A stretch of DNA of 64,000 bases. Origin: Psammoneis japonica. Taxonomy: Eukaryota. The notes beneath the pieces were generated by a model. That model ran no database searches and was not told the origin of the DNA. It saw nothing but the letters and a program-made list of their open reading frames with translations. Positions 20,600-49,424 of this stretch are shown one piece after another. The stretch's first letter is position 1. Each line of letters opens with the position of its first letter. The stretch covers positions 248,001-312,000 of the forward strand of contig QPGO01000025.1 in NCBI GenBank assembly GCA_008632985.1, given 5' to 3'. A program made the position numbers and the translations under genes.

Positions 20600-20969
20600 G
20601 GGGAAAGATTAGATCATAGCAAGGCGTAACTTAAGGAATGGTAGTTCTGATACGGATCTCTTTGGTTTTCTATTGAGTACACGAGGACGTTCGATTTTAG
20701 CCCTACGAGGGCCCTAGAGGCCCTACTCGAGGTGAGACTACGACATACCGGGTACTACTAGCTAGAGGGCGAAAGAAGCGCAAAAGCCTAAGCACTATCA
20801 AAACATATCGCATTCGTTCTCAGTACAGATTTTACGTGGAAGCTACGTGGTCATTCCTAACGGTCGCGGGCTGGCGGGTCACCAAAGTTCCAACGCAGTC
20901 CAACAGCAACAGCGACGACGAGATAGTAGAGTGGGAAAAACTGTGTTTGCTGTCTAAGTAAGGCTCACC

Positions 20970-23330
20970 ATGTTTAGCGGAAACTGGCTCCCGAGTGATG
21001 CTGCAAAAGGCGTGGTATCGGCCCTGGAAAGAACCGGTGATGCAATTACAAAGAGTGCGACGAAAGCTGCTCAAGCGTCCCGATCTTCAAAGGAGGAAAC
21101 TTCAGAGGCAGAAAGCAAGCCACAAGATGAGGAAGTTTCATCCAGCAGAAAGGAAATGATGGGTAAATTAAGAGGAGGTTGGTCGTCCGTTATGGAAGTA
21201 ACAAAGAGTGCTATTGAAAATACCCGCGAGGCCGTTGAGAAGGAGCAATCGAGATTTTTTGCCCCGAAAGGACCTTATAAGCGCGACCCAAAGCTACCGC
21301 TCGATGTGGATGCCCTGAGAGACGCGGAGGTTGTCTATGTCACAGATCGACTGATAACGATGAGCCATCCTGCTATGCAATCGCCTGTAGATGGAGACAT
21401 TACTCCAGATCGAAAGCTCGCTGCGGTAGGACACTTGCTTCAGAGACGACACGGCGGTCGCTACATGGTGTGGAATTTGAGTGAAGTTGAATACGACATT
21501 TCAGTGTTAGAGGACCAGGTCTTGACATTTCAATTCCCTGGTTCACCCTCGCCTCCACTTGGTTTGCTTTTGAAGTTACTAATTAGCATGGAATCGTGGC
21601 TCAAGGCGGACGAACGCAATGTCGCTGTTGTGCATTGCTTGACGGGACGGGGGCGAACCTCCACGGTGCTTGCCGCCTTTTTATGCTGGACCGGTGAGGC
21701 GGGTTTCAAGGATGTGAACTCGGCACTGGACTATGTCGCTCGGTGCAAGCATGTTTCATTAGAGGAACTTACAATTCCTAGCCAACGGCGCTACGTGTCG
21801 TACTTTGCAAACATGCTGGATGGCGTAAGGCCGTCTCAGCCTCCCTTATTGTTGAAGCGAGTTATTATGAGCGAGGCTCCGAAGGTAGGAAGAATGATCT
21901 TGATCGAATGCAGGCACCGATTTGGTTCTTATCTGACACTTTTGCTTGCGCACGTTTTTCAGTTTGGTAAAGGCCCTACCAAACCGGGTGACTCGCAGTT
22001 GTCTCCGGATGGTGAAGGCGGCGCAGAAGAAAACGCGTTGCGAAAGGGTTGTGCTCCCTATCTTCAGATTTTCAAAGGAGGAAACCTGCTGTACACTACC
22101 GCTGCCACTGTCAAGTACGATCAAGACAAGGACGAACTCCCCTTTTGTTCGGTAGCGGACGGTGCAATTTCCTTTCACACGGAGCGTGTGTTGCAGGGAG
22201 ATATTTTGATGCGATGCCGCCATTTGACCAAATCGGGTCAACGTGTATCCATGTTTCGTGCAGCCTTTCACACGGGCTATGTCCCGCCGAGTGTGCTGAG
22301 GCTCACCAAAGCTCAGCTGGATGGTGCTTGTAACGATAAGCGGTTCCCGGATGATTTCTTTTTGGATTTGATCTTCGAAGCTTGTGACGCCGAGGTCGCC
22401 AGCAAGCACCTCCACGAAGGAAAGGAAGAAGCCGACGTGAGCGAAAACAGCGAGGATCAAGAGAAGAAAGAGGGAGATTCGACCAAGTCGGCTGAAGCGT
22501 CTGCAAAAGGGCCCAGCATTGTGACAGCCTCAGAGTATGACAGCATGTTGCATCGTGATTCGCGATTCTGGGATGTCATTGCTGAACGAAACAAGCGCAA
22601 GGCTGGAAAACCTGCGGAAGAGAAGGAAAACGAAACTTGGGGTCCCACTATTGGGCGAAGGCGCGAGTGGGATGAAAGCAAAACACCCAAGAAAGGGACA
22701 AAAGGAAATAAGGGCGAAGGGTCTCAAGAAGATGCTACGGAGCAGGAGAAACGACCATCGGCTCTGGAAACCTTTTCCATTGGCGAATTCGACTTCTTGC
22801 CCTCTGAAACGGATGGTGCAGGGGAACAAGCCAGAGAGCCCGGCGATCAGGACAAGAACGATTCGCCTCCTAAAGAACGCGATGAACTAATGGAGGCCTT
22901 GATGGCCATTGACGATGACGCTGGACTGTCGCCAGATGCTGTTCCAAAGAAGGTCGTGGAAGTAGAGACAGAAGAGATTGTCTTTGACACTGGGCCTGAC
23001 GAAGCACCGCAAGAAAATAAGCCAAATGCAACCGTGCCCGAGTCGAGCGCCAAGAAGAGTGACGAAGTATCTTCAGAAGCAGGACAAGCGAGCGTGCACG
23101 AGGAGGCGGCTGAGGTAACAGAGCCTTCCAAGCAAGATGACGCAGTACAAAATCTACTCGCAGATGCCGATTTGGACTTGGATGCAGATGTGGATGCTTT
23201 CCTCTCATCAGCGCAGGATGGTGGTGGAGACGCAGATGGAGCCACTGAAAATATGGATGACCTCCTCAACTTTGAGGATGACGAGGATCTGGAAGATCTA
23301 GAAAACTTCTTGACTCAGTCGTCGAAGTAA
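20970..23330 (+). CDS. PTEN/tensin-type phosphatase with C2 domain and acidic tail; 78-nt in-frame intron 21885-21962
   Basis: VVHCLTGRGRT P-loop, TIPSQRRYVSYF, MFRAAFHTGYV, RFPDDFFLDLIF. Confidence 0.9.
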   Translation: MFSGNWLPSDAAKGVVSALERTGDAITKSATKAAQASRSSKEETSEAESKPQDEEVSSSRKEMMGKLRGGWSSVMEVTKSAIENTREAVEKEQSRFFAPKGPYKRDPKLPLDVDALRDAEVVYVTDRLITMSHPAMQSPVDGDITPDRKLAAVGHLLQRRHGGRYMVWNLSEVEYDISVLEDQVLTFQFPGSPSPPLGLLLKLLISMESWLKADERNVAVVHCLTGRGRTSTVLAAFLCWTGEAGFKDVNSALDYVARCKHVSLEELTIPSQRRYVSYFANMLDGVRPSQPPLLLKRVIMSEAPKVGRMILIECRHRFGSYLTLLLAHVFQFGKGPTKPGDSQLSPDGEGGAEENALRKGCAPYLQIFKGGNLLYTTAATVKYDQDKDELPFCSVADGAISFHTERVLQGDILMRCRHLTKSGQRVSMFRAAFHTGYVPPSVLRLTKAQLDGACNDKRFPDDFFLDLIFEACDAEVASKHLHEGKEEADVSENSEDQEKKEGDSTKSAEASAKGPSIVTASEYDSMLHRDSRFWDVIAERNKRKAGKPAEEKENETWGPTIGRRREWDESKTPKKGTKGNKGEGSQEDATEQEKRPSALETFSIGEFDFLPSETDGAGEQAREPGDQDKNDSPPKERDELMEALMAIDDDAGLSPDAVPKKVVEVETEEIVFDTGPDEAPQENKPNATVPESSAKKSDEVSSEAGQASVHEEAAEVTEPSKQDDAVQNLLADADLDLDADVDAFLSSAQDGGGDADGATENMDDLLNFEDDEDLEDLENFLTQSSK

Positions 23331-23454
23331 AAAACTATTATGGGCGTTCTTGGTAGTTCCTGCTTCAATTCCTTTATTTTGTATAGTTCTCACTCCCTCT
23401 ACGAAAGGCTGAAACGGCGCTGCTCCACCAATACACCAAGAGTACTGTTTTTCT

Positions 23455-26400
23455 CTATCAAACGCTCTAACATCCTACTGTATGTCTCCACTCTCTAGGG
23501 CGGCGCGTGGATGTTCAGCCTACACTAGAATTTATAGATACAAGCATGATCTACTACAAAGCAGGTATTTCAAACTTTAAACTCTCTAGAGCGCCCCGAT
23601 TTGACTCATGCTAGTGCTCTCTAGTCTTGGTCTCCCCAGAGAGGTCCTCACGCTAGCTCCAGAGATTAAAACGAGAGCAGCGATAGCAGAGAGTGGGACA
23701 GAGTATAGGATGTTTCAAATGTTGTGTTTCGTTACGGATCGAGGATGATGTTCATCAAACAATGCGTTTCGTTGCGGATTCCGTAACGTTTTGCGGATGT
23801 GATGTTGCGGAGTCTGTAACGAGAATAAGGTTTCTCAAAAATTTTGTTCCGTAACGAGAACAAGGTTTCTCAAACAATTCATTTTGTTTCGGAATCCGCA
23901 ACGTTGCGGATGTTACGGAGTCCGGAACGAGAAGGTTTCTCGCTCTCTAACATCCCAACTGTGTGTCTCTACTCTCCAGGGCAGCGTGGATGTTTGGTCT
24001 ACACTAACATCTATAGATGCAAGCATGATCTAATACAAAGCAGATGTTTCAAAGTTTAAAGTCTCTAGAGCGCACGATTTGACTTGTGCCAGTGCTCTCT
24101 AGTCTTGGTCGCCCCAGAGAGGTCTTCACGCTGGCTCAAGAGATCAAAACGAGAGCAGCGATGGCAGAGAGTGGGGCAGAGTATGAGATGTCCCAAATGT
24201 TGTGTTTCCTTACGGAATCCGGATTTTACGGAGTCCGTAACGAGGATGATGTTTATCAAACAATGCGTTTCGTTACGGAATCCGTAACATTGCGGATGGG
24301 ATGTTACGGAGTCTGTAACGAGGATGAGGTTTCTCGAACATTTTGTTCCGTAAAACGAGAACGGTTTCTCAAACAATTCATTTTGTTTCGGAATCCGCAA
24401 CGTTGCCGATGTTACGGAGTCCGGGACGAGAAGGTTTCTCGCTCTCTAACTTCCCAACTGTGTGTCTCTACTCTCTGGGGCAGCGTGGATGTTTGGCCTG
24501 CACTAGAATCTATGGATACAAGCATGATCTAATACAAAGCAGACATTTCAAACTTGAAAGTATTTAGAGCGCCCGATTTGACTCATGCCAGTGCTCTCTA
24601 TGCAGTCTCTTGGCCTCCTCAGAGAGGTCCTCACACTAGCTCCAGAGATTAAAACAACAAGAGCAGCGACAGCACAGAGTGGGAAAGAGCATGGGATGTC
24701 TCAAAAAATGTTGTGTTTCGTTGCGAAATCCGGATGTCACGTAGTCCGTAACGAGGAGGATGTTCATCAAACAATGCGTTTCGCCACGGAATCCGCAACG
24801 TTGCGGATGGGATGTTGCGGAGTCTGTAACGAGAATGAGGTTTCTCAAACGTTTGTTCCGTAACGAGAACAAGGTGTCTCAAACAATTCTTTTCGTTTCA
24901 GAATCCGCAACGTTGCAGATGTTACGGAGTCCGCAACGAGAAGGTTTCTCGCTCTCTAACATCCTAACTGCACGTCTCTACTCTCCAGGGCAGCGTGGAT
25001 GTTTGGCCTACACTAAAATCTACAGATGCAAGCATGATCTAATGCAAAGCAGATGTTTCAAACTTTGAAGTCTCTAGAGCGCCCGATTTGACTTGTGCCA
25101 GTGCTCTCTAGTCTTCGTCTCCAAAGAGAGGTCCTCACGCTAGCTCCAGAGATTAAAATGAGAGCAGCGACAGCAGGAGTGGGACAGAGTGTGGGATGTC
25201 TCAAATGTTGTGTTTTGTTACGGAGTCCGGGTGTTGCGGAGTCCGTAACTAGGATGATGTTCATCAAACAATGCGCTTCGTTACGGAATCCGTGACGTTT
25301 TGCGGATGCAATGCTGCGGAGTCTGCAACGAGAACAAGGTTTCTCAAACATTTTGTTCCGTAACGAGAACAAGGTTTCTCAAACAATTCATTTTGTTTCG
25401 GAATCCGCAACGTTGCGGATGTTACGGAGTCCGGGACGAGAAGGTTTCTCGCTCTCTAACTTCCCAACTGTGTGACTCTACTCTCTGGGGGGCAGCGTGG
25501 ATGTTTGGCCTGCACTAGAACCTGTAGATGCAAGCATGATCTAATGCAAAGCAGACCTTTCAAACTTTTGAAAGCACCCAGAGCGCCCGATTTGACTCAT
25601 GCCAGCACTCTCTAGTCTTGGTCTCCCCAGAGAGGTCCTCACGCTGGCTCAATAGATTAAAACGAGAGCAGCGACAGTAGAGAGTGGGAAAGAGCATAGG
25701 ATGTCCCAAATGTTGTGTTTTATTACGGAATCCGGATGTTGTCCGTAATTTGGATGATGTTTGTCAAACAATGCGTTTCGTTACGGAATCCGCAACGTTG
25801 CGGATGGGATGTTGCGGAGTCTGTAACGAGAATGAGGTTTCTCAAACATTTTGTTCCGTAACGAGAACAAGGTTTCTCAAACAATTCATTTCGTTTCGGA
25901 ATCCGCAACGTTGCGGATGTTACGGATTCCGCAACGAGAAGGTTTCTCGCTCTCTAACATGCTAGCTGTGTGTCTCTGCCGGCACTCTCGAGGGCAGCGT
26001 GGATGTTCAGCCTTCATTAGAATCTATGGATGCAAGCATGATCTATTGCAAAGCGGGCATTTCGAACTTGAAACTCTCCAGAGCGCCCGATTTGACTGAT
26101 GCTGGCATTCTCCAGTCTTGGTCTCTCCAGAGAGGTCCTCACGCTAGCCAGAGAGCAAAACTAGAGCAGCAGATGGCAGAGAGTGGGACAGAGGAAAAGA
26201 TGTCTCAAACATTGCGTTTCGTTGCGGAGTCCGGATGTTACAGAGTCTGTGACGTGAATGATGTTCCTCAAACAATGCGTTTCGTTACAGAATCCGTAAC
26301 GTTGTGGATGGGATGTTACGGAGTCCGCAACAAGGATGAGGTTTCTCAAAAACTTCATTTCGTTACGGAATCCACAACGTCACGGAAGTCCGCAACGAGA

Positions 26401-26560
26401 ACAAGGTTTCTCAAGCATTTCATTTTGTTGCGGAACCCACAATGTTGTGGATGTTGCAGAGACCACAACGAGAAGAAGGTTTCTCGAGCATTTTGTTTCA
26501 TTGCGGACGCCTGTCACGTTGTGGACATTGTGGAAATCCGTGACATCCGTGGCGAAACAC
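23455..26560. repeat. Tandem array of about 6 diverged units of about 500 bp with internal palindromic sub-repeats
   Basis: Units start near 23463, 23941, 24440, 24950, 25450, 25948 (ctctaac...gcgtggatgt); recurring cgttacggaatccgtaacg and gagaacaaggtttctc. Confidence 0.95.
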
Positions 26561-26677
26561 TCACTCGCGCAGCAGCTTGCTCCTTTGGTGCCAGGTCTTC
26601 TCTGTCTTTTTCCGTGCCACTTGCTTGCAGACCTCCCAGTTGGGAGTGTCACTGACCACCAGGGCAAGTGATGCAAA

Positions 26678-26826
26678 AGTGAGTGAGTGAGTGAGTGAGT
26701 GAGTGAGTGAGTGAGTGAGTGAGTGAGTGAGTGAGTGAGTGAGTGAGTGAGTGAGTGAGTGAGTGAGTGAGTGAGTGAGTGAGTGAGTGAGTGAGTGAGT
26801 GAGTGAGTGAGTGAGTGAGTGAGTGA
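26678..26826. repeat. (GAGT)n microsatellite, about 37 units
   Basis: Direct reading. Confidence 0.97.
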
Positions 26827-26829
26827 GGT

Positions 26830-29800
26830 TGCAGGAATGCATCAGTTTTTCATGGAACATCTGGGTTGCAACAGGAGTTCATGCATGTGCAGCATGTGGT
26901 GAGTTCACATCAATTTACACAAGAGTTGCAACAGGAGTTTGCAGGCCCTGGGAGCAAGTGCATGTTGTGATCCTTGATGCACTTGCATCACACGTGGGGC
27001 AACAGCATTGGCACACACACTGGCCACTGCTCGTGCACATCTTCATTTCTCAACACATGCACTCAGCAATTGCCCTTGTGATGCACTTTAAAAATGTTTT
27101 GCTCAAATGACTGTCTGTCACACACAACAAGTTGTTGCCCTTTTGCATTGAGTTGAGTGGCACGCACGCATCTTGACAGTTGATGCGACCTCGTTCCATT
27201 CTGATGACATCAAGTTCTGACACCAGTGGAGCCGGCCGCACAGCACTGCCAGTGCTGGCATGAAAAGTGCGCACCATGCCGTGCGATCAAAATGACACAT
27301 GCACAAAGGCCCGCCTGCGTGTGGCCGCATGCTGACCTGCATGTTGCACAGTCTTGCCATGGCCAGTGCCCCCCTCTGAAGGGCTTGTTTAATTTGGCAC
27401 CCACTCCCCATTGCCATGACAGTTTCAGAAGCGCACACAGCAGCTGTTGGCATGTCTCTGCTTGCACGCAAATTTGTTGCAACAAACTCCTGCAAAACAA
27501 TTTCTGTTGTGACGCAACTGTGACGTTGAATTTTTCCACCTCTGCCCAAAAAAATTCAGCACGCAAAACACCAAAGCCATTTTTCTAAACCAAAAAAATC
27601 ACCATGGCCACCACCTCTGAACAAACGCCGCTGCAGTGGATGAATCATCAGCGCCCACTTGCCCCCTTCCAGAGAACACTTCCAAACAACCTGAAGTGTC
27701 TTCTGACAAAAGGGGGCAAGCAGAGCTCACAGATCTGTAGTGGAGACATGGCTCAGATGTGCACTCACTTCTCGCAGAGTTTTTCCATGGCATGTCAAGC
27801 AACAAGCCTTGCTTCTTTGCTGTCAAAGAGCCTTTTGTCAAGATGGAGAGGATCAGTGAAAATGATGATGTCAAAAAAGAGGTGTCAAAGCCAGGTGAGT
27901 CCTGCCTGTTGCTGTGCTTCTTGACAAGTGCACAAGTCCATCACTTCACTTCCGACACGATGTGGCAATGGCAGTGGTGGCAGAGAAGGTGCACATTGGG
28001 CTGCAAGAATTTGTTGATCAACCCTGTCCATCAAATCCTTTTTTCTGCTTTGACAGTGTCCCAGCTGGTGTTTTTTTTGTGAGCCACTTTTCTTCAGCTT
28101 TGGCTGCAGAGTTTTCAATGCGCTGCTTGAGCAGAGTCCAACAGAGTTGTCGCTCCTCATGAATCAAACTCAGACTTTGCCATGGCTTGTTTTCACAATC
28201 ACAACAAAGGGGTTTCTTTGTTAAACCAGACTTGGCAGAGCAACAACAGCAGAGCCAGAGACAAAAGAAGTTGCACAATGCAATGACAAAGCAAAGAACT
28301 TGACACTTTTGACAAAAACAGCCTGCTGATGGGCTCCAATGCCAAACCCATGCTCTTCTCTGTGTTGATGGTGCACCATGGTGCAACACTTGCATTGGAG
28401 GAGATTGACTGCTGCCGCTTCAAGGTCAAGGAGGGCTCCATTGGTGATCTTAATTTGTGCCCAGGTGCAAAGAAGGTGCGCCAAGCACAACTTGGGAATG
28501 GAGTGCATGCCTGGCAAATGAGCTCCAGCAAAGCAAGCCATTGAGAACATTGAGGCCCATTTGGTTTAAAAACACTCCAGGNAAGGACTTTCCTGCACAC
28601 AGGGCATCTGCCCCACTTTGGAGATTGTTGACTGAAAAACAGGTGGGAGCTCTTGGGGGGGGGGGGGGGGTGTGTTTGGTTGAGCTCAGCTGTGTTGATC
28701 TCATCACACAGAAATGTCTGAGCTGGCCTTGTTCTTGGCAATGCCAGGTGAAAGACATTTGGAGGATGTTGTGTGCCGCGCACATGAGCAGACCACCTCA
28801 AAGCACAAAGCATGCCACCAATCTGGTGTTTGTTCCAACTCATCCCTCAATTGATTGACGTCCTTTTGAGGGGATGTCAGCAAAGCAATTCCAAGCAACA
28901 TGCCAGAACCTCCGCCAGGCATGGACTTTAACTTGAAGCTCTGTGTCAACTCTGGTCATGCCAACAACAATGTTGCAGATCGTTTGTGCTCAGAATGTTT
29001 TTTTGCTTGAAGTTGGTGCTGGTCTCATGTTGCTCCAAGTGGTGGAGCACTGTTGAGATGTTTGTTTTTGGCACCAAGTTTGTGGGGCCATGGAGCAATG
29101 CATGGAGTCTTTGAAAGGCTTGCGACACAAGCCATGGATGATGGGAGAATTCAACATGTGGTGAGTTGGCACTTGGGCAGTGAACTTCAGATTTAGAAGT
29201 TGGTGATGACAGCAGATCTCTCAGAGGGAGTTCAAGATGCTGAACTTCCTGAGCTGTGGCACATTGTTGCAATGTGCTTTTTGTCTTTGCAAGCCCAGCT
29301 CATCTGACTGCAGGGTGTAAATTTTCACAACATCCAACAATGTCCAGGCTCAGCACTGATTTTTAAAAGTCAAACATGAAAGATGGCTGCTGGAGATGCT
29401 GAAAAGAGGGAAAGGGAGGGTCCAACCTCCATGAGAACTGACAGAGTTGCTTCAATGTGCCCAATTCTGTGTGCTTGACAACCTCTTTTGCAGCTCTTTT
29501 CCTCTGCCAGTGCTTGACAGTTTTGTTGAACATGACAGGCATTCAACATGTCCACCGTCTTGCTTGGCTTAGCTGGGTCACTCCCTCATCACCAAACACA
29601 CTCCTCCTGGCCATCAAGAGAGTTGACATTTGGCTGTGTCACAAAATGTGCAACATGTTCAGTCCTGAGGGGACTGAAGAATTTAAGATGTGGTGAATTG
29701 GCATCAGGGCAGTGAACTTCAGATTTAGAAGTTGGTGATGACAGCAGATCTCTTGGAGGGAGTTCAAGATGCTGAACTTCCCAAGCTGTGGCACGTTGTC

Positions 29801-30281
29801 ACAATGTGCTTTTTGTCTTTACAAGTCCAGCTCATCTGACTGCAGGGTGTAAATTTTCACGACATCCAATGTCCAGGCTCAATGCTGATTTTTGAAAGTC
29901 AAACATAAAAGATGGCCACTAGAAATGCTGAAAAGAGGGAAAGGGAGGGTCTAACCTCCATGAGAACTGACACAATGCATGATGTTCATCTGCCTAAAAG
30001 TGCATCGGAGAGCCTGTTGCAGAGTTGCTTAAATGTGCCTAATTCTGTGTGCTTGACAACCTCTTTTGTAGCTCTTTTCCTCTGCCAGTGCTTGATAGTT
30101 TCGTTGGACGCGACAGGCATTCAATATGTCCACCGTCTCGCTTGGCTTAGCTAGGTCACTCCCTGTCACTAAACACACTCCTCCCCACAATATCCGGGGC
30201 CAATGGAAGAGGGATCAACGTACGTTGTCATCAAGAGTTGACAGTTTGGCTGTATTATAAAATATACAATATATTCAGTCC
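26830..30281. mobile_element. Degenerate TpA-depleted repeat DNA, class unassigned
   Basis: Same composition as the recognisable TE relics; no intact ORF; no diagnostic motif recognised. Confidence 0.45.
29157..30281. repeat. Tandem duplication of about 530-590 bp (about 29157-29690 and 29690-30281)
   Basis: gggcagtgaacttcagatttagaagttggtgatgacagc at about 29175 and 29707; both copies run to ...ttcagtcc. Confidence 0.95.
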
Positions 30282-31331: not shown

Positions 31332-31849
31332 GGCGAACAGAGGCAGAGCTAAAGAGAAACATGTGATTTGATTGAAAGTGGCGAGCACACTTTAAATGCA
31401 ATGCGGGTCAGAAGAGTGTATTATTGTTGCTTTGTTCCTCGCTCGCTATGCTACCCGCTATGGATACCGGTAGACCTACCCTGCGCCACAACCCACACGA
31501 CACGACGCACTCGTCTTGAGGGATGCGCGAAAGATTTTGACCATGAACAAAAGGCACCAAAATGAATGGGGGGCGTCTGCTGGCCAAGTGCGCACGGCAG
31601 AGCTAGCTACTAGCCGCAGAGAGTCTTTGGAAGCGAGAGCTTCGAAAGAAGTCTGCTCGTCGATGCGACTGGAGAATTTGGATCGAAAATTTGAAAATTC
31701 CCGGACAGAGCCCTCTTTCGAAAGTTGAACATCGCCAGTCGCATCAGATGCCCGTTTGCGGCCCATGCATGGGCCGCAAATTTTTTCAAATCTTCAGCGA
31801 CAGAGGCGATCGATGAATGGACCCCACAGCCGAACTCTCCACACCCGTT

Positions 31850-34800
31850 TGTCCTGAACTGTCTCACTGGAATGTGCGACATGGGTGACAAGCTCTTTGT
31901 TGCTTTTGGTGGAGGGGACTCTGAATTGAAAAGGCATTTGGTTTGTTGCACACAGTCGTGTGTGCTTTCAGCTGCGCGCACAACATGTGATGCGGTTTTG
32001 CTCTCAAGCCACTCGGCTCACAAGATCGATGACAACAGCAGCCCGGTCACATCTGACACCTGTCTTGTGGTGTGTTTTCAACTCAGCTTGCAAACAGATC
32101 CTGTGGTGTGTGAGATCTGTCACAAAATCAGAAGGGAGGAACGGCACCACTGTGGCAGGCAAACCATTTGTGGTGAAGGAACAGGGTCAGACCAGACAGC
32201 ATCTGTGCTCATTGGGGCAAGGCTCTCAGCCAGTTGCTTGAGGAGAGCAATGTCTGCTGCCCAAATCTGGCCAATGGAAAGGTGGTCAACAATCCATGGC
32301 AGCATTTGAAAGATGCATGGCACTGCACAGCAAGAAACTCTTGAAGTTGCCTGTGCATCCATGAGTGAGGTCGGAACAGGGCAATCCATGGATGCACACT
32401 GAGCAAGGGTGGCAGCATGGCTGTCAATGAGCACTCAAGCTGGGAAAGCAATGAGGTCTGCAAGGCATCCAGGCAGCATGATGGGTGGCACTGCCAGCCA
32501 AGACAACAACAAGCCAGGGCCGTCAAAGGACCAGGCTGCTGAAGATGCTTTGCAGCAGTCAACCACAGGGTTGAAAAGGTTGCTGGGCACCAAAACATGG
32601 CCAGGGCCCAAGGTGGGCACAGCTGACCAACCCGCTGGGACAAAGACAGGCTCCTCTTGTGCAGAGACACTGTGAGCCCGGCAGCGGCCGTGAGGACAAC
32701 TGCTGAGAAAGAGTGCATGTTGCCACAGTGTGGGGGCAGCACGCAAGCAAGTGCACGCCTGCATGAGCACCACGCCACTGGAAAGCATGGTGGCATGTTT
32801 TGAGCAGCATGCCTCAGGGGCACGAAGGCAAACACAGTTGTTGGCAAGGAGCCAGTTGGGTTGGGAGGGCTGCTGCACAGCAGTGGTCAGATTGTTGGTG
32901 GTGGCCGAGAGGCCCAAGGCAATGATGGTGGGCATCATTGTCACAATGCAAATCCTGATGAAGACCACCTCACAGTTTTGAGAGCTGAGATGGCTGACCA
33001 CACTGGGACTCACTGGGATGGGAGACTGCCAGGATGGCCAAAACCATCCACTCCAGAACAGAGAAGTTGCCAACAAGGAGGTGAGCAGACCATTTCCAAA
33101 TTTGGCCAAGATGGCCATTGAAGCAGATGCTGGTTGGCATTGCTTCCTTCCTCTGTTGCATTGCTTGCAGGTGCCCTCATTGAGTGCCTCTTTGCGACCA
33201 CCTTCTCTGGTGCTGACCTGCTCTGCTCTGGTCAATTTGGCGTTTGGCATCCATGGTGGACTTTCTTGTCAACCCTGTCCACACCAACATTGAATGCTGT
33301 CCTCTTCCCATTCTCAACCCCTTCAGCAACTGTGCTTTGCTTCACCTGCACCAACAGCCACAAGACTCTGCTGTCTCCAAGAACCACATCAGACACACGC
33401 GTCGCCTGTGCTGCCATCACTGCACCATGACCACCATCATCATGACTGCCCCCCTCATCCCCTTGCAGGTCTCCACCACTTTCAACAGAATGTCTTGCTC
33501 AAACCCACAGCCCTGCACCCTGACCACCTCTTGAATTCCCAGCCAATGTTGGCACACAACTCGTGGTGCCCATGGCAGCATTTGAAAGATGCGCGGCAAT
33601 GCACAGCAAGAAACTCTTGAAGTTGCCTGTGCATCCATGAGTGAGGTCAGAACAGGGCAATCCATGGATGCACACTGATCATCTTGCTTCTTTTCTTCTT
33701 GATCAGAATCTGTTGAAAAATCCAACTTGCGAGTGACAGAGCTTTTGCCTTTGTCGTTCGTTTTCGATGGATTTGCAAGCATGCAAGCCAGCACCTGTGC
33801 AAATCCAAAACAGGAGGAAGAGTCAGCACCATGGATCAGCACCAACATGAGACAACAGAGACTAAAAGAAGCATGTGCACCTCAACTGTTTTCCCCAGAC
33901 ACTCATGGAATCTGCAAGAACACCTCCTGACACATGGGGGTTTGAATGCTTGGACAGATCCCAGTCAGGAAAAGCAGATTGAGTTGAGCAGGCATGGGCC
34001 TCTTGCACACTTTTCACAAGTCATCCCACAAAGGGACTGCAAAAGATGCACTCCAAGTCTTGTTGTTTGTCCCAGTCATAAAATGGTGCCACAGCATTGC
34101 CTTGTCTTTGATGCTGGCTGTCACTGTTGGTTTCTGACTGCTCTTGGACCAAGACTGCCCAAGCCATTTCCCACTCTTGTTGGACTCCCTCTTGATGTGT
34201 GCAGCTGCTGCTTTTCCTGCTTCAACATCCATTCAACTGCTTCTTTTTGGCAAGGATGCAAGGTGGGCACAAGACCAGGAATGTCTCAGAATGGTTTTTG
34301 GTCCTCATCTTGTGCCAAGAGTTGAACATTGTCCATCACATTGTACAAATCATTTTGGCTGCAACAGACTCATCAGAAGATGATGCTGACTGGTGTTTGG
34401 TCACATCAACAACCACAGATTGTGGAAAGAGCCACAACAATCAACAGCATTTTGCATCTTGTGAACTTGTGTGCAGCAGAATTGACACGCGCGAGTGCAA
34501 CAGGCTTGTTGTTGACTTGTGCGGTCGAAAAGTGATGGGCAAAAAATTGAACATTTCAGCTGTTTTTGCTGTGATCAATCAATGTCAAAGCACAGTGAGG
34601 CACACACATGTGAAATGAATTGTGCAACATTGATGTGTGTCAGTGTTGTGGTGAGTTTGTGGCTGTTGGTGGAGTGTGTTGCATTCATGGTTGCCGTTGT
34701 TGTTGCGTTTCGACAAGTCGTGGAAAATTTGAAATCCAAAACATTCGTGCATGCAGGCATGTTGTCAACCACAGGACCTTGACATCATGCATTCCTTTGC

Positions 34801-34900
34801 ATGCAAAGAATTTACATTTTTCACTTGTTGTGATTTCATGTGTGAATGAGACATTGACATTGATTGCCCAATGTGACACGTGTCAATGTTCACATGCAAA
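31850..34900. mobile_element. Degenerate TpA-depleted repeat DNA with a ~110-bp dispersed duplicate (about 32294-32402 and 33570-33678)
   Basis: Composition plus duplicated ccatggcagcatttgaaagatg...ccatggatgcacactga; class not recognisable. Confidence 0.45.
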
Positions 34901-34939
34901 CATCAGGCTTGCCGCCAGAAAAAAAGGATGTTCAGCAAA

Positions 34940-37900
34940 AAAAAACAGGTGGGGGCAAACTCACCCATGAGCGCTTCTTGCACATTCAGCGCATCATCAT
35001 TCTTCTTGGCCTTGGCAGCACAGACACAAGGGTCTTGAATGTCCAATTGTCCACTGTCACAGCAGGTCTGGATCTCAGCAAGATGAGCAAGCTGGGAAAT
35101 GTGTCCTCCAGCATCCAACAGCTTGACTGAGGCCAAGTGGACTTCATTGGCAAAACGAGTTGCAGCTTGCTTGCCTTTGTTTGATCTTTGTGAGTGACGC
35201 ACGTTCTGCTCAGTTGTGGGCAGGACTGGGACATCTGGAGCCGGGACTGAGATGTCCAATGACTCCGTGCCTGATGGAGGTGGCGGATGCACGGGAGGCA
35301 TTGAATGACCAACCTCCGACTTGCTCAGTGATGGATTGGAGTTTTGCGGTTGTTGTGAAGGTGGTTCCTGGGGTGGCACCAATGGCAAGTCATCAGAATT
35401 TGATGGTGTGGATGCAGCAGGACGTGCAAATGGCGGTGGTTTGACGACCGGAGTGACAGGTTTTGAAGATTTTGTTGCAGTGGGCTGTTGCTGACGCACA
35501 TTCCTGATGAGATGCTCATGTTCTTTGTCACCATTTCTGCTTGAGTTCTGCAGGAGTGAGCCAATCGTCTTGAAGGAACAATTGTTTGTCACTCGAATGG
35601 TGTCTGGATGACATTTCTCCAAAAGAGCTCTTCCAGGTGATCAGGTGGCTTGCTCTCCCTCTTGATCAATGCAACCATGGCAAAGAGATTGCCAAACACC
35701 ACATGATGCTGAGGAGCCATGGACTCCATGTTCAAGTTCAGGGCCAGTGGAACTTTGCCAGCGTGAACCAAACTGAGGCCAAGAAAAACACCGCGCCTTG
35801 ATCTTGGTTGGTTGCCATCATGGCAACTTCTGACCTTGCTGCAACTTGGGATCCAGGACGTAGACAGGACAGCCCCAAACATGCAAATCAAGCAAACAAT
35901 GGTGTGGGATGGTGGATCCGGCAAAGATGTTGGCAGAACAAAGACCATTTAATGCCGGAGCATTGTTGCAGATGTGGGCGGCGCAGTTGACTGCCACAGG
36001 CCACAATGAGCTGTTGACACCACCGCGCCAATGGATGGAGGCATGGAGGATCATGGCTTGTGCCACATTGGATGCAGAACAAATGGACCTCTTGATGATG
36101 CCATTCTGGTGATGGGTGTTCATTCCCCAACAGTGGATGCATTGCTGAGAGTTGTGGACATGTGCAACAAACTTGTTGGCCTTGAAAGCACCATTGTTGG
36201 CAAGGTGCTCCTGCACAATGATGCCATGACCAAGAGCCATCTGCTCACACAACCTTGTTTTGCCCACATCATCTCAACTGCAGAGAAACCAACTTGATGC
36301 TTGATGTGCATGAACCCAGAAGCATGATTGATGAAGACACAGCCACCAACGTGCTGCTGAGAGGAGGGTTTGCCACAGGAATTGCAGGTGCAACCCTTGA
36401 GATGCAACTTGAAGTGACCAATGCTCATGGACTGACCTGGATGCAAGTGACCAGCTTTGAGTGCCCCATCACATTCAGGGACAGTGGTCGTCTCAGTGGG
36501 ACAGCGGTGAGCCTTGGCACACTTGCAGGTGTCGCATTTGGGGATGTCACACTTGGAGGTGGACGTGAACTTAAGAGCGGTGAAAGGAGGCTGCCGGTGG
36601 AGAAGAGCTTTTGGGTGCATGGAAAGTTAACAGAGCATGGATGTCCACCAGTGACTTCTGTCTGGAAGACAGATTGAGGTTGTCAGGGTCAGCGACAGCA
36701 CTCAAATTGACTTGGGGAGTGCACACAGCACCATGAGATGTGGGGCCAACTGGCAAGTTTGTGCGTTTGTTGCATGCAATGTGGATCTTGGGTGTGCCAT
36801 AAAAACACAACTTGAAAACCTCGCTGTTGCCCCAAAAGTGTTCTCCAATGCTCGCAGGTTGAAAGAGACATTGTGGAGACAGCAAATGCACATCAGCCCA
36901 AGGCACGTAACAGCAACTAGTCTGGATGCTAACGTTGCCACCATCCGCCACCTGAAAGCACCAGAAGACAGCACCAATGCCTTCAACAGGCAACCCGTTG
37001 GCCATTCCACCAAGCTTGAGAGGCTTGGGCAGTGCTTGAATGTCCCCACTGAAGTCGTCTTTGTCCAGAGACAGCAAGCAAGGCACCAGCAACAAAGATG
37101 GCCTGAAGAGATGGCTGCCCAATGGACATGAGGACGGCATGGTCCCAAGCCAGTTGCAGCAGTTGGGTGGCTCCTGTGGGAGCGTAGATGACAGCTGCAG
37201 TGGGTTGTGCAACAGGGGAAGGTGAGGCACTGGCACCTGCTGAGGCTTGAGCAACAACTTCCATGACAGCAGGTTGGAACTTGGTGCAGTTGACCATGTG
37301 TTGGTCTTGACACAACTTGGAGACACCAAAGATGTCGGGACTGGAGAAGTCCGACTCACAAAAGGTGTCAGCATCAAAGAAGGACTCATGACAGATGGGA
37401 AACTCTTCACAGATGTCAAAGCAGTCATTGAGCTCACTGGCCTCAATCAACTCGTGAAGCTCAAAAGGCAAGGTTGCCATGTCGTGCGTGGCTCCCTCTG
37501 GTTCCAGCACCTCATGCTTGATCTTCAAATGATGATGCTGCAGCAGGGTGCCAGGTGTCAAGACGACTTGATCATCAAGAGCCTGAACAACCTCATGGGT
37601 CTGAGAGCATGGGTGCTGCAAGGGAATGCTCAGATGGGGTGGGGCTCATCCAAGACAGATGGAGAGCCACAGTGCAATTGCACATGAGATGATGCCCCAC
37701 CAACATGGGCAGCTGAATGGAGCAGGCTCTTGCATTTGAGATTTGTTTGGAGGAATGCAATGCACATGGCCGGACCAAGAGCACTGCAGTCCTTGTCCTT
37801 GGCAACCAGCGCTGGGTCACTCAAGCAACATTTGTGCTCCATGGCCGTCACATTGTCTAACTTTGCATGGATTGCTCGATTGAAGGCCTCACCAGAGGCA

Positions 37901-38830
37901 TTTGAACACTTCCGAAGGAGATCGGACCCAAGCTGGACCGGAAGAGCATGTCCAGTCTGCAGGATCTTGAGAAGATGGAGTGCCTTGGCAGAAAACTCGG
38001 CAACATCTTCGCCTGGGCAGGAGTCGCAAGTCAAGCATCAAAGCTTTGAAATCCTCAGAAGCTTGAGAAACATCATGAACCACAGATGCGCCACAAGTCT
38101 TGAGTGCCATCATGAAAACAACTTGGCCAGGAAAGTGTTTGAACAGGTCCTGGTGACCGAACTGTGTTTCAATTTTCTCGCGGAATTTGTGGGAGATGCA
38201 AGACTCAACAACAAGGCAAGTGAGATTGATGTCATCATGCTCACGTTAATCACACACTGCATCATTGCCAGCAATGGTTGACCGGCACATGTGCTTGGTG
38301 ATGACTTCCTCAATGGCGAAGCTGTGAAGGTGAATGAACAGATTCACGACCTTGTTGTTGAGCTTCATGATGAAGAAATTTTCCATGCCATGCTCATGAA
38401 CTGTCATTTTGATCAATTGAATGAAATGTTCCTTGTCCAGTTCATTTGCCTTTCCATCAGCAAGTTCCAGATTGCTGTCAAACTTGATCATGTTGGTTCC
38501 GTCATGAGCATCTCGGAGATTGTGCTCGACATGCAGTGGGATCTTCTCATTGCAAGATTGGTTGGCAAAGCAACAGGTGCACTTGAGTTTTGGCTTGCAG
38601 CTGTCATCCAGCGGGGATCTGCCCATGTGGCATCCACATTCAAGATGAACTCCACCGCAAAGTGGTGGTGGCTGAGATTGTGAACCTGAGGTTGCCATCA
38701 CCTGATTCTTTTGAGCTGCAGGAGGAGGCAGAGGCAGATTCGTGCCCGTCCGTGGAGTCTTGGGTGGAGGGGTGTTGGCATTTGTCATGGTGGAGACAAC
38801 TTGATGCAGCTGTGGCACCAAATGCACAAA
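34940..38830 (-). mobile_element. Degenerate Ty1/Copia (CoDi-type) gag-protease-integrase, truncated at the start of RT
   Basis: LKLGGMANGLPVEGIG, CDTCKCAKAHR, HQNGIIKRSI, LWPVAVNCAAH, LHVWGCPVYVLD, RGVFLGLS, DALNVQEALMG. Confidence 0.85.
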
Positions 38831-39649
38831 GTCAACTCAATGATGGATCAATGGAACGTTCTTGAGTCGAAAAACTTGCAGAGCCATGCCAAGCAACCAT
38901 GACAGTCAATGGCGCAATGGGAGCAACCCGCGATGTCACTTGAGGAGCTGTTCTTGAGGAACAGGGGACTCAGAGAGTCAAAGGAACTTGATCTGGGTTT
39001 GCTTTGAAATGCACAGACTTTGTCGTTTCAAATTTGGAACTCATTGGAGATTGCAGGTTGATTCCTTGAGGCAAAATGGCTGCCAGCTTGTCAGTGAACA
39101 ACGGCAGCTAGCAGCAATGCAGGGAGTGTCTGATGTTGACTGGAGGCGTCGCTCAGACGTCAAACAACATGACCATTTGGCAGAAACGAGTCAACGTTGA
39201 TGGCAGATGGAAGCTTCAATGACCCAATCGACAGTGCTTTCCCGGTGGCAGAACAAATGCAACATGACATTGGGACTCGCAACCACTGAAGACACAACAA
39301 AGCAGTTGGTGTTAGCAAGAGCAAGAGCTCAAGGTTGCGACAGAGCAGCAGAAGTTGTTGTTGTCAAAGTTCTCCATGGAGAAATCATGAGCAGAAACTG
39401 AAGAGTGATCTCAACGATCAGATTTGTGAGTGGAGAAGAGATTTGAATCTCAATGATGCAAGCGACACATGGAAATGTCTGAAATGACATTGACAAATGA
39501 CTTTGACATTTTGACTGCCAAGATCTACATGCGCAAGATTGCGCATGCAGAGCTCAGCATGAAATTTCATGCATGTAAAATTCATTGGTGTCTGAGCATT
39601 TGCTTCATCCCGAATGCTGGGGAGTGGGGGGAAACCACCTCTCCAAGAG

Positions 39650-40777
39650 AGTGGCGTGCACACATGAAGATTTCACGTGGCGGCACGGGGGGTGGGACAG
39701 ATGCGGAGCAAGGGTGGAACTGCCTGAGTCACACAGCTTTCCATCCACTCCTTCCTTTCTTTGATCTCTCATGCCAAAGCTTTGATGCCTGCTGGCATCA
39801 TCACCCCGACTCTGCTTGGGACTCTTTTGTTCAAGAAGAAGGCTTTGCTCAAGGTTGCCCCCTTGGTCCTGTCTTTGCAAGCCTTGTCCTCTTGCTTGTC
39901 CTTTGTCCAATTAACCAAGAACTCCATGAACACATCCCTGGCTGCTCCCCTGCCTCCGTTGGCTCCTGCGTTGATGACGCTCATGCCTTTCTTCTTTTTC
40001 ACTCCACTCTCCCATGGTTCCTTGAACATTTCTCCACTCTTGGTGCTCCCTGAAGCATTGCTCTCAACCTCCATAAAACTGAAGTTCTCACCTCCATCAC
40101 TGGCATTGGCTCCATTCCCACCCTTCTTCCCTCCTGGGCCAACCCTCTCTGTGCCACTCTCTCCTGCCTCAATCCTTCAAATCATGACCTTCCTGCAGCC
40201 CCGAGATCACCTCCAGTGTTCACTTCCTTGGCCAGCCCCTTGGCTTGCAAGACTTTGCCAATTCTTTCCTCTCTGCCACCTCTTGCACTCTCTCCCACAA
40301 AGTCGGCATGCTCCTCACCCGCCTCCATGACAAGCAAACTTGGGGTCAATTCTTCAAACACTGCTTCACTCCTTCCTCTGCCCACCTTCTTGGCGCTGAT
40401 TGTTGTCACAACTTTGATCCCAACAACCCTCCCAACCCCTTCCTTTGGACCTCCTCCTTTCAACACTCCCTTCTCACTGCCATTCATTGATTTCTCCCCT
40501 GTGCTGCCTCCCGTGCTGCTCCTCTTCCCAATCATTCTCTAGCCATTGCCTTCCTTCCTGTGTTGCTTGGCAGCTTTGGCCTCTGGGATCCAACTGCTGC
40601 CACTGTTCCATCATTCATGGTGTCTCAGTGTCTGTTCTCTGCTCATTCCGCTTTGCATCTCATGGTGTCCAACTGCCATCAGGTGTCACTGTTGCCCTTC
40701 TTTTGGCTTTCTTTGTCCTCTTGGCACAACCCCCGCTCGACTCTGTGGCACTGCATGATTTTCCATCATTGTGTTCC
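39650..40777 (+). mobile_element. CRE-like non-LTR retrotransposon, RT part (5' of the Copia insertion)
   Basis: QEEGFAQGCPLGPVFASLVL and GSCVDDAH (mutated YVDD); pyrimidine-rich sense strand. Confidence 0.75.
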
Positions 40778-40965
40778 TGTCAGAATGCTGATGGCAAGAG
40801 TGACAAGCTAAAGAGCTCCCTGCAAACTAGCAACAGTGGACAACACATGTGCCAGTGAGAAAGAGTGAGAGAAGATCTCAGAGAGATCATCTCGTCCATC
40901 TAAAAAGAGTCTGACAGTCATCCACGCACAGTCTGACCATGCATCCTGCACAGGGTGAGCTGACA
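40778..40965 (-). repeat. 3' LTR, with polypurine tract AGGGGAGGC (40966-40974, minus strand)
   Basis: Direct repeat of 45944-46135; TG...CA ends. Confidence 0.92.
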
Positions 40966-45931: not shown

Positions 45932-45943
45932 AAGGCCATAACC
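45932..45943 (-). promoter_or_regulatory. Primer binding site GGTTATGGCC (copia-type, half initiator tRNA-Met)
   Basis: Immediately inside the 5' LTR; resembles the Drosophila copia PBS GGTTATGGGCCC. Confidence 0.75.
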
Positions 45944-46135: not shown

Positions 46136-46140
46136 GTTCC

Positions 46141-49322: not shown

Positions 49323-49424
49323 TATCCTCCACATTTTTTTTATTTCTCTCTTGTTGGCTTGCTGTTGGTCGTCGCTGTCTTCTTGTTCGTGTTGTCCAAG
49401 CTTGACCACTGTGCTTTTATCACC

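What the first reader, a model, noticed from the sequence alone, without database searches (positions are those of the whole stretch)
23455..26560. Satellite array records a positional gradient of TpA loss
In the homologous ~50-bp segment (tacactagaa...gcaggtattt) the six units, ordered from the PTEN gene towards the TE block, hold 8, 6, 5, 4, 3 and 3 TpA (at about 23521, 24000, 24499, 25009, 25511, 26013; hand count). Lost sites mostly read TG or CA. CpG stays abundant in the array, so TpA conversion seems not to depend on prior CpG decay. Inference: mutation intensity depends on position in a spreading chromatin domain, not only on being duplicated.
Basis: partly seen in the sequence, partly recalled or inferred. 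Interest (0 to 1): 0.8.

Follow-up and report, generated by a model that had tools for sequence, protein, structure and literature searches.

The report
TpA-loss gradient beside purged transposon DNA
A six-copy DNA repeat in a diatom has lost its TA steps progressively towards a neighbouring stretch of dead transposon DNA in which nearly every TA and most CG have been rewritten to TG or CA, pointing to a kind of targeted mutation that I could not find described.

Summary
At 23 strictly defined TA sites over whole units, retention is 20,15,13,12,12,8.

TA loss, not gain, is supported. Seven TA sites carry TA, TG and CA together, against 0-2 for every other dinucleotide. CpG retention is flat at 21,20,19,21,21,17 of 28.

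Caveats: the four middle units show no significant trend (p=0.14), and U6 is about 1.3-1.4 times more diverged overall.

The important context is new. The window is from a diatom. Four blocks totalling about 26 kb have TpA o/e 0.05 and CpG o/e 0.27. The missing 77 sites per kb reappear as 79 extra TG/CA per kb. One block is a dead Copia element whose conserved Tyr codons now read His or Cys.

The array abuts such a block and shows the same sequence-context preference. I read the gradient as graded spill-over of a region-targeted, strand-symmetric transition process. The chromatin link was not tested. Ten literature searches found no description.

The parts
20958..23330 (+). PTEN-like gene (790-codon open frame, stop at 23328-23330), the gene-side neighbour of the array
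   Evidence: Pfam PTEN_C2 E=4e-21 plus weak dual-specificity phosphatase matches. Best relatives are diatom proteins at 50-58% identity.
23454..23932 (.). Unit 1 of the array (479 bp; lacks about 23 columns present in the others). Retains 20 of 23 strict TA sites.
23933..24431 (.). Unit 2 (499 bp). 15 of 23 TA sites retained.
24432..24941 (.). Unit 3 (510 bp). 13 of 23 TA sites retained.
24942..25443 (.). Unit 4 (502 bp). 12 of 23 TA sites retained.
25444..25945 (.). Unit 5 (502 bp). 12 of 23 TA sites retained.
25946..26560 (.). Unit 6 (615 bp, with extra degenerate sub-repeats). 8 of 23 TA sites retained. Its last ~300 bp also lose CpG. No TA at all in 26501-26750.
26678..26827 (.). (AGTG)n microsatellite, 37.5 copies, just inside the depleted block
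26560..29900 (.). Depleted block adjoining the array: 0-3 TA and 0-9 CG per 250 bp, with 48-66 TG+CA
29146..29607 (+). Copy A of a tandem duplicate, deeper in the block: 4 TA, 1 CG
   Evidence: 82% identical to copy B in ACGT, 98.3-98.8% in purine/pyrimidine coding
29678..30184 (+). Copy B of the same duplicate, at the block edge: 16 TA, 8 CG
31600..47500 (.). Largest depleted block in the window
40776..46136 (-). Degenerate Copia-type LTR retrotransposon inside the block. LTR-like direct repeats lie at 40776-40966 and 45942-46136 (93.8% identical). An integrase C-terminal remnant lies at 42893-43279 (-).
   Evidence: PF25597, E=2.5e-4, below the curated cut-off; 698 relatives, best E=1.5e-23; the relatives carry SH3_retrovirus, gag_pre-integrs and RVT_2.
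1..5750 (.). Depleted block at the left end of the window
61900..64000 (.). Depleted block at the right end of the window

Best explanation
The array is an old six-unit tandem repeat. Units differ by about 10-18%. It lies between a PTEN-like gene and a block of dead transposon DNA in a diatom genome.

In this genome, certain regions have had almost every TpA and most CpG converted by transitions to TpG or CpA, with nothing else changed. The array has been hit by the TpA arm of that process in a graded way. It is least affected next to the gene (13% of TA sites lost in U1). It is intermediate in the middle (35-48%). It is most affected next to the block (65% in U6). The CpG arm reaches only the last ~300 bp.

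Shown here:
- the counts and the direction of change;
- independence from CpG;
- the composition of the blocks and the bookkeeping of lost and gained sites;
- strand symmetry;
- a sequence-context preference shared by the array and the blocks.

Inferred:
- the process is aimed at a chromosomal region, most plausibly silenced chromatin over transposons, and not at duplicated sequence as such;
- its TpA arm extends further past the border than its CpG arm;
- the CpG arm is ordinary 5-methylcytosine deamination.

The chemistry of the TpA arm (A:T to G:C at TpA) is unknown.
For: Direction and TA-specific mutability:
- Of 23 strict TA sites only 3 are invariant and 7 are three-state, against 0-2 three-state sites for the other 15 dinucleotides. 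CG has 28 sites, 10 invariant and none three-state.

Gradient:
- Retention is 20,15,13,12,12,8, slope p=5e-5. U1-U5 gives p=0.0014 and U2-U6 p=0.0115.
- By distance from 26560 in 500-bp bins, retention is 0.27, 0.45, 0.45, 0.40, 0.60, 0.75 and 1.0.

Blocks:
- TA is 3.1 per kb against 41.7 in normal DNA. CG is 16.8 against 55.4. TG+CA is 220 against 141.
- The other 12 dinucleotides keep their o/e values.

Change happened in place:
- In the duplicate pair, copy A reads CA or TG where copy B reads TA at 11 sites (the reverse once), and where B reads CG at 6 sites. There are 5 TG-versus-CA double differences.
- The pair shows 36 transitions and 3 transversions.
- Normal-DNA repeats give ts/tv 63/60, and the other two block pairs give 7/1 and 11/1.

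Protein-level direction:
- At 2 columns where 69 of 90 and 101 of 123 normal Copia relatives have Tyr, the window's ORF and 12 Tyr-free database fragments have His 10 and Cys 8 of 21 cells, and never Tyr.
- At 5 conserved Arg columns, 17 of 59 cells are Gln, Cys, His or Trp.
- His against Cys (10:8) and Cys+Trp against Gln+His (8:9) are balanced, so both strands are hit equally.

Same process in array and blocks:
- TA retention per site in the array correlates with the survival ratio of the same tetranucleotide context in the blocks (rho 0.49, p=0.019). TTAA and CTAA survive best, ATAT and ATAC not at all.

TA depletion ahead of CG depletion at other edges:
- 31501-32000 has TA 3 and 0 with CG 19 and 13. 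48751-49250 has TA 2 and 3 with CG 17 and 20.

The sequence is real:
- Contigs of an accurate-read run at depth about 60 match the array with 0-1 differences per piece and run on to 26670.
- That run holds 0.79 of the sampled words of 22500-30500, 42% of which is block.
Against: - There are only six units. The four middle units show no significant trend (p=0.14).
- The permutation test treats units as independent at each site.
- U6 is about 1.3-1.4 times more diverged from the others in transversions (24.4 against 16-21) as well as transitions (57 against 38-43). Its low TpA may therefore be largely general divergence of a terminal or older unit.
- U1 begins 124 bp after the PTEN stop codon and may be partly 3' UTR under constraint.
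- Three of the six block edges (about 29.9, 31.6 for CG, and 61.9 kb) are sharp within 250-500 bp. DNA with 22-29 TA per 250 bp lies directly beside the block at 61.9 kb. Spill-over is therefore not obligatory.
- The LTR-like pair differs at only 8 sites, with one TG/CA double difference. Most depletion of that element therefore happened before the pair was formed, or happened concordantly, which the simple in-place model does not predict.
- No methylation, chromatin or population data were available.
- The read run may be the sample the assembly was made from, so it is not independent.
Confidence: 0.55

Rival explanations
1. This is ordinary repeat history. U6 is an older or unhomogenised terminal unit. 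U1 is constrained as part of the PTEN 3' end. TpA is simply the most transition-prone dinucleotide everywhere. The trend then reflects the age and constraint of the units, not distance from the block.
For: - U6 has the largest transversion distance as well (24.4 against 16-21) and 12 transversion singletons against 3-10 for the others.
- U2-U5 are flat (p=0.14).
- TA-involving changes are also common in the normal inverted repeat, 16 of 123 substitutions.
Against: - In a clock-like tree every unit has the same root-to-tip time, so unit order cannot produce unequal loss.
- U1 is not slower in general. Its transversion distance is 18.4 and it has 5 transversion singletons, like U3-U5. Yet it has lost 3 of 23 TA sites against 8-11 in U2-U5.
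- Only 5 of 20 variable sites are nested as serial copying would predict, and 4 further sites show both TG and CA among the units that lost TA.
- This rival does not explain the shared context preference or the second duplicate pair.
Confidence: 0.2
2. The targeting is triggered by repetition, as in RIP. The array is hit because it is repeated, and its end units are protected or exposed only because they have one homologous neighbour or lie next to a transcribed gene.
For: - The array has an intermediate spectrum. Transitions over transversions against the consensus run from 13/9 to 43/17 per unit, between normal DNA at about 1 and the blocks at 7-12.
- Diatoms encode DNMT4 enzymes related to the fungal RIP factor RID, with unknown function (PMC9998398, passages read).
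Against: - The blocks are almost entirely single-copy within the window, even in purine/pyrimidine coding that ignores transitions.
- A 500-bp inverted repeat at 59.3-60.9 kb (78-94% identical) is unaffected.
- Six copies at about 83% identity are only mildly affected.
- An end-unit effect should be symmetric, but U1 and U6 deviate in opposite directions.
Confidence: 0.15
3. The trend arises from chance and from the reader choosing the segment after seeing it.
For: - The strictly monotone series is confined to about 150 alignment columns around the chosen segment.
- Simple counts outside it give rho -0.70, p=0.125.
Against: - Strict TA sites outside the segment still give p=0.0015.
- U1 exceeds U6 in 8 of 10 non-overlapping 54-column windows, with one reverse and one tie.
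- None of 488 sliding windows is monotone the other way.
Confidence: 0.05
4. The TA/CG-free blocks are a sequencing or assembly artefact, for example miscalled modified bases, or they are foreign DNA with its own composition. In that case the gradient has no mutational meaning.
For: - The block interior could not be checked against reads.
- The listed runs come from a single sample.
Against: - Exact 31-letter words of an accurate-read run cover 0.79 of 22500-30500. That is impossible if the 42% that is block were wrong every ~12 bp.
- One contig bridges 25931-26670.
- The duplicate pair and the Tyr-to-His/Cys changes at conserved Copia positions show decay of once-normal sequence.
- Twelve of the 150 listed database relatives (698 in all reached E<=0.001) carry the same Tyr-free signature.
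Confidence: 0.04

Closest known systems
Repeat-induced point mutation (RIP) of ascomycete fungi, including its leakage into flanking single-copy DNA
   Same: Both produce dense transition-only mutation of transposon DNA with a dinucleotide preference. Both destroy coding capacity and can affect neighbouring sequence. Diatoms have RID-related DNMT4 genes of unknown function (PMC9998398, passages read).
   Different: RIP makes only C:G to T:A changes, mostly CpA to TpA, so it raises TpA and lowers GC (RIPCAL abstract PMC2621366 in the listing, plus recalled knowledge). Here TpA is destroyed, half of the changes are A:T to G:C, and GC stays near 50%. Duplication does not appear to be the trigger.
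CpG decay by deamination of 5-methylcytosine in methylated transposons (vertebrates, plants, fungi; TE methylation is reported in diatoms)
   Same: The CpG arm here, CG to TG/CA in TE-derived blocks with o/e 0.27, looks the same. CG in A/T-rich flanks is lost most.
   Different: It offers no account of the stronger TpA arm (o/e 0.05), which also reaches beyond the CpG arm. Methylation was not measured here.
Spreading of silent chromatin from transposons into neighbouring DNA (position effects)
   Same: There is a graded effect over about 3 kb from a TE border and a protected gene side.
   Different: Known spreading alters expression or methylation. A graded, TpA-specific mutation record has, to my knowledge, not been described. 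Three of six edges here are sharp.
A-to-I deamination with a 5'-U preference (ADAR hyperediting; ADAT-type mRNA editing in fungi). Recalled, not tested.
   Same: It gives A to G changes preferentially after T/U.
   Different: Those enzymes act on RNA. Here the changes are in DNA, equal on both strands (His:Cys 10:8), nearly complete, confined to TpA with AA unchanged, and they extend into non-transposon flanks.
6mA (N6-methyladenine) systems of eukaryotes
   Same: An adenine modification might in principle be mutagenic.
   Different: 6mA sits at ApT, in transcribed genes and not in TEs. It shows little sign of being mutagenic, and the diatom P. tricornutum had only 5mC (preprint 10.1101/2024.10.28.620566, passages read). 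ApT o/e is unchanged in the blocks, 0.94 against 0.89.

Membership tests
Tandem repeat (satellite/minisatellite) array | Head-to-tail copies of one unit | tested here: met
   TRF finds period 499, 5.2 copies, 84% matches. Six alignable units. Read contigs agree.
Fungal-type RIP | Only C:G to T:A transitions | tested here: not met
   TA to TG/CA changes (A:T to G:C) are as frequent per kb as CG losses, 38.6 each. GC is unchanged. Tyr codons become His or Cys codons.
Fungal-type RIP | CpA to TpA bias, so TpA rises | tested here: not met
   TpA o/e is 0.05 in the blocks against 0.61 in normal DNA.
Fungal-type RIP | Triggered by sequence duplication | tested here: inconclusive
   Within the window the blocks are nearly single-copy, and an inverted repeat in normal DNA is spared. 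Genome-wide copy number could not be examined because no genome is held.
Fungal-type RIP | Dependence on a RID/DNMT4-type enzyme and premeiotic timing | not testable with these tools
   No genome is held. The literature only says that diatom DNMT4 function is unknown.
5mC-deamination CpG decay | CpG to TpG/CpA in the affected region | tested here: met
   CG is 16.8 per kb against 55.4. CG-versus-TG/CA differences occur in the duplicate pairs. Arg codons become Cys, His, Gln or Trp.
5mC-deamination CpG decay | Cytosine methylation of the region | not testable with these tools
   No methylation data could be reached.
Ty1/Copia LTR retrotransposon (the element at 40776-46136) | Integrase and RT domains of the Copia type between LTRs | tested here: inconclusive
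   Only the integrase C-terminal part is recognisable. PF25597 scores E=2.5e-4, below the cut-off. There are 698 relatives, and the long ones carry gag_pre-integrs, SH3_retrovirus and RVT_2. No RT match was found in the window copy. The LTR-like repeats are 93.8% identical.
Heterochromatin spreading | A graded silent-chromatin mark across the border | not testable with these tools
   Only the sequence footprint is available.

The most novel reading that the evidence does not exclude
Diatoms, or at least this lineage, have an undescribed DNA-level genome-defence mutator that rewrites both self-complementary pyrimidine-purine steps in silenced DNA. CpG goes to TpG/CpA, and TpA goes to TpG/CpA even more efficiently. 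The A:T to G:C arm would come from an unknown chemistry, such as a modified thymine or adenine at TpA, or a DNA adenine deaminase. It acts on both strands and prefers RTAY contexts. It reaches a few kilobases beyond transposon borders, so it can also mutate the flanks of neighbouring genes. The satellite array would be a natural dosimeter of that reach.
Probability: 0.45. Interest if true: 0.92.

Novelty: new variant of a known kind. Interest (0 to 1): 0.8.

Why it matters
Targeted point mutation of transposons is known in detail only from fungi (RIP) and, passively, from 5mC deamination. Both remove G:C pairs.

A process that removes TpA by A:T to G:C transitions while keeping base composition balanced would be a new mutational signature and probably new enzymology.

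It would explain how some diatom transposons become unrecognisable. Here 116 open frames from the blocks gave a single weak Pfam hint.

It would bias repeat annotation, because purine/pyrimidine coding restores 98% identity where ACGT shows 82%.

It would also mean that genes beside transposon blocks sit in a local mutation gradient.

The array gives a rare internal control: the same sequence six times at increasing distance from the border.

Tried and rejected
- No whole genome is held for the window, so no genome-wide test and no outgroup copy of the repeat could be obtained.
- Earlier findings of the scan held nothing for this place, this sequence or the key words. The only word matches were unrelated phage notes.
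- BLAST of the units against the window, and a purine/pyrimidine-coded self-comparison, found no hidden copies of the array in the blocks.
- Pfam was run on 28 + 88 open frames of the blocks and on three read-through frames. The only results were PF25597 below its cut-off and two evidently spurious weak hits. ORFs in the intermediate zone at 47.4-50.6 kb and the island ORF 30459-31391 gave nothing.
- The word-indexed protein search found nothing for the Copia remnant. The full HMMER search did find relatives.
- The metagenome scan with an alignment of Tyr-free fragments returned 4 distant Copia loci with normal composition (TA o/e 0.58-0.81, CG 0.92-1.05). That is no evidence on how widespread the signature is.
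- A single-strand 'TAY' target rule was tested. It fits G-flanked sites (GTAA to GCAA gain 7.7 against GTGA 1.7 per kb) but not A-flanked ones (ATAA to ACAA 2.1 against ATGA 4.2). It is inconclusive and was dropped.
- Serial-copy (duplication order) model: only 5 of 20 variable TA sites are cleanly nested. Rejected.
- Rfam found no family in 23300-26900.
- Sequencing runs: no RNA holder is listed.
None returned a paper describing joint TpA and CpG loss in diatom or other eukaryotic transposons. Only listings and abstracts were seen, except for passages of PMC9998398, 10.1101/2024.10.28.620566 and PMC6313786. Subscription journals are outside the library.
- My recollection that dinoflagellate 5-hydroxymethyluracil favours TpA was not confirmed by the passages read.
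Full report
**1. What is at the coordinates**

Tandem Repeats Finder reports a 499-bp period, 5.2 copies and 84% matches at 23740-26350. A perfect (AGTG)37.5 microsatellite lies at 26678-26827.

Anchoring on a 12-mer present once per unit gives six units. They are U1 23454-23932, U2 23933-24431, U3 24432-24941, U4 24942-25443, U5 25444-25945 and U6 25946-26560, of 479-615 bp. Each unit has a unique half and a half built of ~40-bp sub-repeats around a palindromic TTACGGAATCCGTAA core. No Rfam family and no Pfam domain was found in the array.

Upstream lies a 790-codon PTEN-like open frame, 20958-23330 (PTEN_C2, E=4e-21). Before it come Not3/5 and a mitochondrial carrier gene. The PTEN-like protein's best relatives are diatom proteins at 50-58% identity (Cyclotella, Thalassiosira, Asterionellopsis, Amphora and others), so the window is from a diatom with no close relative in the protein collection.

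Contigs of an accurate-read public run (word depth about 60) match the array with 0-1 differences per piece. That run may be the sample the assembly came from.

**2. The observation**

In that segment 17 of 19 non-TA cells are TG or CA. Over all 39 TA-bearing columns, 82 of 117 non-TA, non-gap cells are. CpG is abundant, with o/e 0.96-1.22 per unit.

Over whole units the raw TpA counts are 28,22,17,17,17,12. In the 465 shared columns they are 24,18,14,14,15,9.

I then defined strict candidate sites. These are adjacent ungapped columns where every unit reads XY or one of its two single-transition neighbours, and at least one unit reads XY. Results:
- TA has 23 such sites, retained 20,15,13,12,12,8.
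- CG has 28 sites, retained 21,20,19,21,21,17.
- Shuffling states among units within each site (100,000 times) gives a one-sided p of 5e-5 for the TA slope.
- For CG, p is 0.17.

The limits are real:
- U2-U5 alone give p=0.14.
- There are only six units.

**3. Direction of change**

Only 3 of the 23 TA sites are invariant. Seven carry TA, TG and CA together. No other dinucleotide has more than 2 such three-state sites, and CG has none.

All five TA sites private to U1 show both TG and CA among the other units. That pattern needs a TA ancestor with independent losses, or an improbable two-step path from CG.

**4.

A dinucleotide profile shows that four parts of the window are almost free of TpA and poor in CpG: about 1-5750, 26560-29900, 31600-47500 and 61900-64000. 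They hold 0-3 TA and 0-10 CG per 250 bp, against typically 5-18 and 9-22 in the rest.

Pooled over 26 kb of block and 29 kb of normal DNA:

| Measure | Blocks | Normal DNA |
|---|---|---|
| TA per kb | 3.1 | 41.7 |
| CG per kb | 16.8 | 55.4 |
| TG+CA per kb | 220 | 141 |
| TA o/e | 0.05 | 0.61 |
| CG o/e | 0.27 | 0.98 |

The 77 missing TA+CG per kb reappear as 79 extra TG+CA per kb. TG o/e in the blocks is 1.80 and CA o/e 1.73. The other twelve dinucleotides and the base composition are unchanged.

**5. The blocks are decayed normal sequence, changed in place**

(a) A tandem duplicate has copy A (29146-29607) inside the block and copy B (29678-30184) at its edge.
- The copies are 82% identical in ACGT but 98.3-98.8% identical in purine/pyrimidine coding.
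- The differences are 36 transitions and 3 transversions.
- A reads CA or TG where B reads TA 11 times (the reverse once), and where B reads CG 6 times.
- Five sites read TG in one copy and CA in the other.
- A has 4 TA and 1 CG; B has 16 and 8.

(b) Repeats in normal DNA (59.3-60.9 kb) have ts/tv of 63/60. Two other block pairs have 7/1 and 11/1.

(c) An ORF at 42893-43279 (-), lying between LTR-like repeats at 40776-40966 and 45942-46136, has 698 relatives in a full HMMER search (best E=1.5e-23).
- The long relatives carry gag_pre-integrs, SH3_retrovirus and RVT_2, so they are Copia-type polyproteins.
- The window's copy has no Tyr (relatives 2.5%) and 9.3% Cys (relatives 2.0%).

(d) Twelve of the 150 listed relatives are also Tyr-free.
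- At the two columns where normal relatives have Tyr (69 of 90 and 101 of 123), this Tyr-free group plus the window ORF reads His 10, Cys 8 and other 3, never Tyr.
- At five conserved Arg columns, 17 of 59 cells are Gln, Cys, His or Trp.
- That is TAY to CAY/TGY and CGN to CAN/TGN, in equal numbers on the two strands. This argues against editing of a sense RNA followed by reverse transcription.

**6. Link between array and block**

- The array ends exactly where the block begins.
- TA retention by distance from 26560, in 500-bp bins, is 0.27, 0.45, 0.45, 0.40, 0.60, 0.75 and 1.0. CG falls only in the sub-repeat half of U6, 10 of 19 against 16-17 of 19.
- The contexts that survive in the blocks are the ones that survive in the array. 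Survival ratios run TTAA 0.65, CTAA 0.25, down to ATAT and ATAC at 0. The correlation with array retention is rho 0.49, p=0.019.
- The array's spectrum is intermediate. Transitions over transversions against the consensus run from 13/9 to 43/17 per unit.
- TA depletion also runs ahead of CG depletion at two other edges. 31501-32000 has TA 3 and 0 with CG 19 and 13. 48751-49250 has TA 2 and 3 with CG 17 and 20.

**7. What weakens the reading**

- U6 is further from the other units in transversions (mean 24.4 against 16-21.2) as well as transitions (57 against 38-43). Part of its TA deficit is therefore general divergence.
- U1 starts 124 bp after the PTEN stop and may be constrained. However, its transversion load equals that of U3-U5, while its TA loss is 3 of 23 against 8-11 in U2-U5.
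- Three of six block edges are sharp, and TA-rich DNA abuts the block at 61.9 kb.
- The LTR-like pair differs at only 8 sites with one TG/CA double difference. That element was therefore mostly depleted before the pair arose, or the conversion was concordant. I cannot explain this.
- The interior of the block was not checked against reads. The indirect argument is that the run holds 0.79 of the sampled 31-letter words of 22500-30500, of which 42% is block, and that one contig bridges 25931-26670.

**8. Mechanism**

The data support a regional, DNA-level, strand-symmetric process. It converts both self-complementary YpR steps to TG/CA. Its TpA arm is more complete than its CpG arm and reaches further.

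The CpG arm is most simply 5mC deamination. TE methylation is known in diatoms (PMC9998398, passages read).

The TpA arm has no known counterpart.
- Fungal RIP does the opposite to TpA.
- 6mA sits at ApT in active genes and was absent from the one diatom tested (10.1101/2024.10.28.620566, passages read). ApT is unchanged in the blocks.
- RNA-editing deaminases do not fit the strand symmetry or the spill-over into flanks.
- A modified thymine or adenine at TpA, or a DNA adenine deaminase, are guesses.

The targeting by chromatin is also an inference.

**9. Novelty**

Ten full-text searches returned no description of joint TpA and CpG loss in transposons of diatoms or other eukaryotes. The library lacks most subscription journals, and I saw mostly listings.

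I file the finding as a new variant of targeted transposon mutation. The array gradient is a small but real record of how far that mutation reaches.

**10. Verdict**

- The wider phenomenon deserves a genome-wide follow-up.

Noticed in passing
window 1-5750, 26560-29900, 31600-47500, 61900-64000: Four blocks, about 26 kb in all, have TpA o/e 0.05 and CpG o/e 0.27, with an exactly compensating TG/CA excess. All other dinucleotides are normal. This is the main context of the finding, but it is far larger than the finding itself.
   Followed up: yes
database proteins P0219, P0183, P0134, P0184, P0243, P0190, P0193, P0153, P0186, P0257, P0214, P0167: Twelve of the 150 listed Copia relatives in the public protein collection contain no tyrosine and read His or Cys at conserved Tyr positions. 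The same TA-loss signature therefore exists in other public (meta)genome data. Their sources and taxa could not be looked up.
   Followed up: partly
window 40776-40966 and 45942-46136: The LTR-like repeats are already TA- and CG-poor yet differ at only 8 sites, with one TG/CA double difference. Most of the depletion predates the pair or was concordant in both copies. This is unexplained.
   Followed up: partly
window 47500-50000: This is an intermediate zone with low TA (2-10 per 250 bp) but patchy, often normal, CG (5-24). No Pfam domain was found in its ORFs. It may be a partly converted sequence.
   Followed up: partly
window 58930-61034: Nested inverted repeats (59271-59777 against 60886-60381 at 78%, with an inner part at 94%) lie in very TA-rich DNA (up to 29 TA per 250 bp) directly beside a depleted block. 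They have a normal ts/tv near 1. This may be a young foldback or MITE-like element not yet affected.
   Followed up: partly
window 25336-25835 (run X2) and loose ends at 23784, 24270, 26203, 26233, 26501 (run X1): A low-depth contig joins 25336 to 25835, skipping 498 bases. That is a form of the array with one unit fewer. Loose ends show related sub-repeat sequence elsewhere in the genome.
   Followed up: no
window 5973-8438 (+): An 821-codon open frame with a 2OG-Fe(II) oxygenase domain (PF13640, E=1.8e-6) starts about 200 bp from a block edge. Its first ~1 kb has low TA (4-6 per 250 bp) with normal CG (13-16).
   Followed up: no
window 29900-31600: An island of normal composition lies between two depleted blocks. 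It holds a 310-codon frame (30459-31391, minus strand) with no Pfam match.
   Followed up: partly
window 19751-20000: There are 48 CA dinucleotides in 250 bp inside the Not3/5 gene, probably a CAG/CAA (poly-Gln) tract.
   Followed up: no
window 28582: A single N lies inside the depleted block.
   Followed up: no
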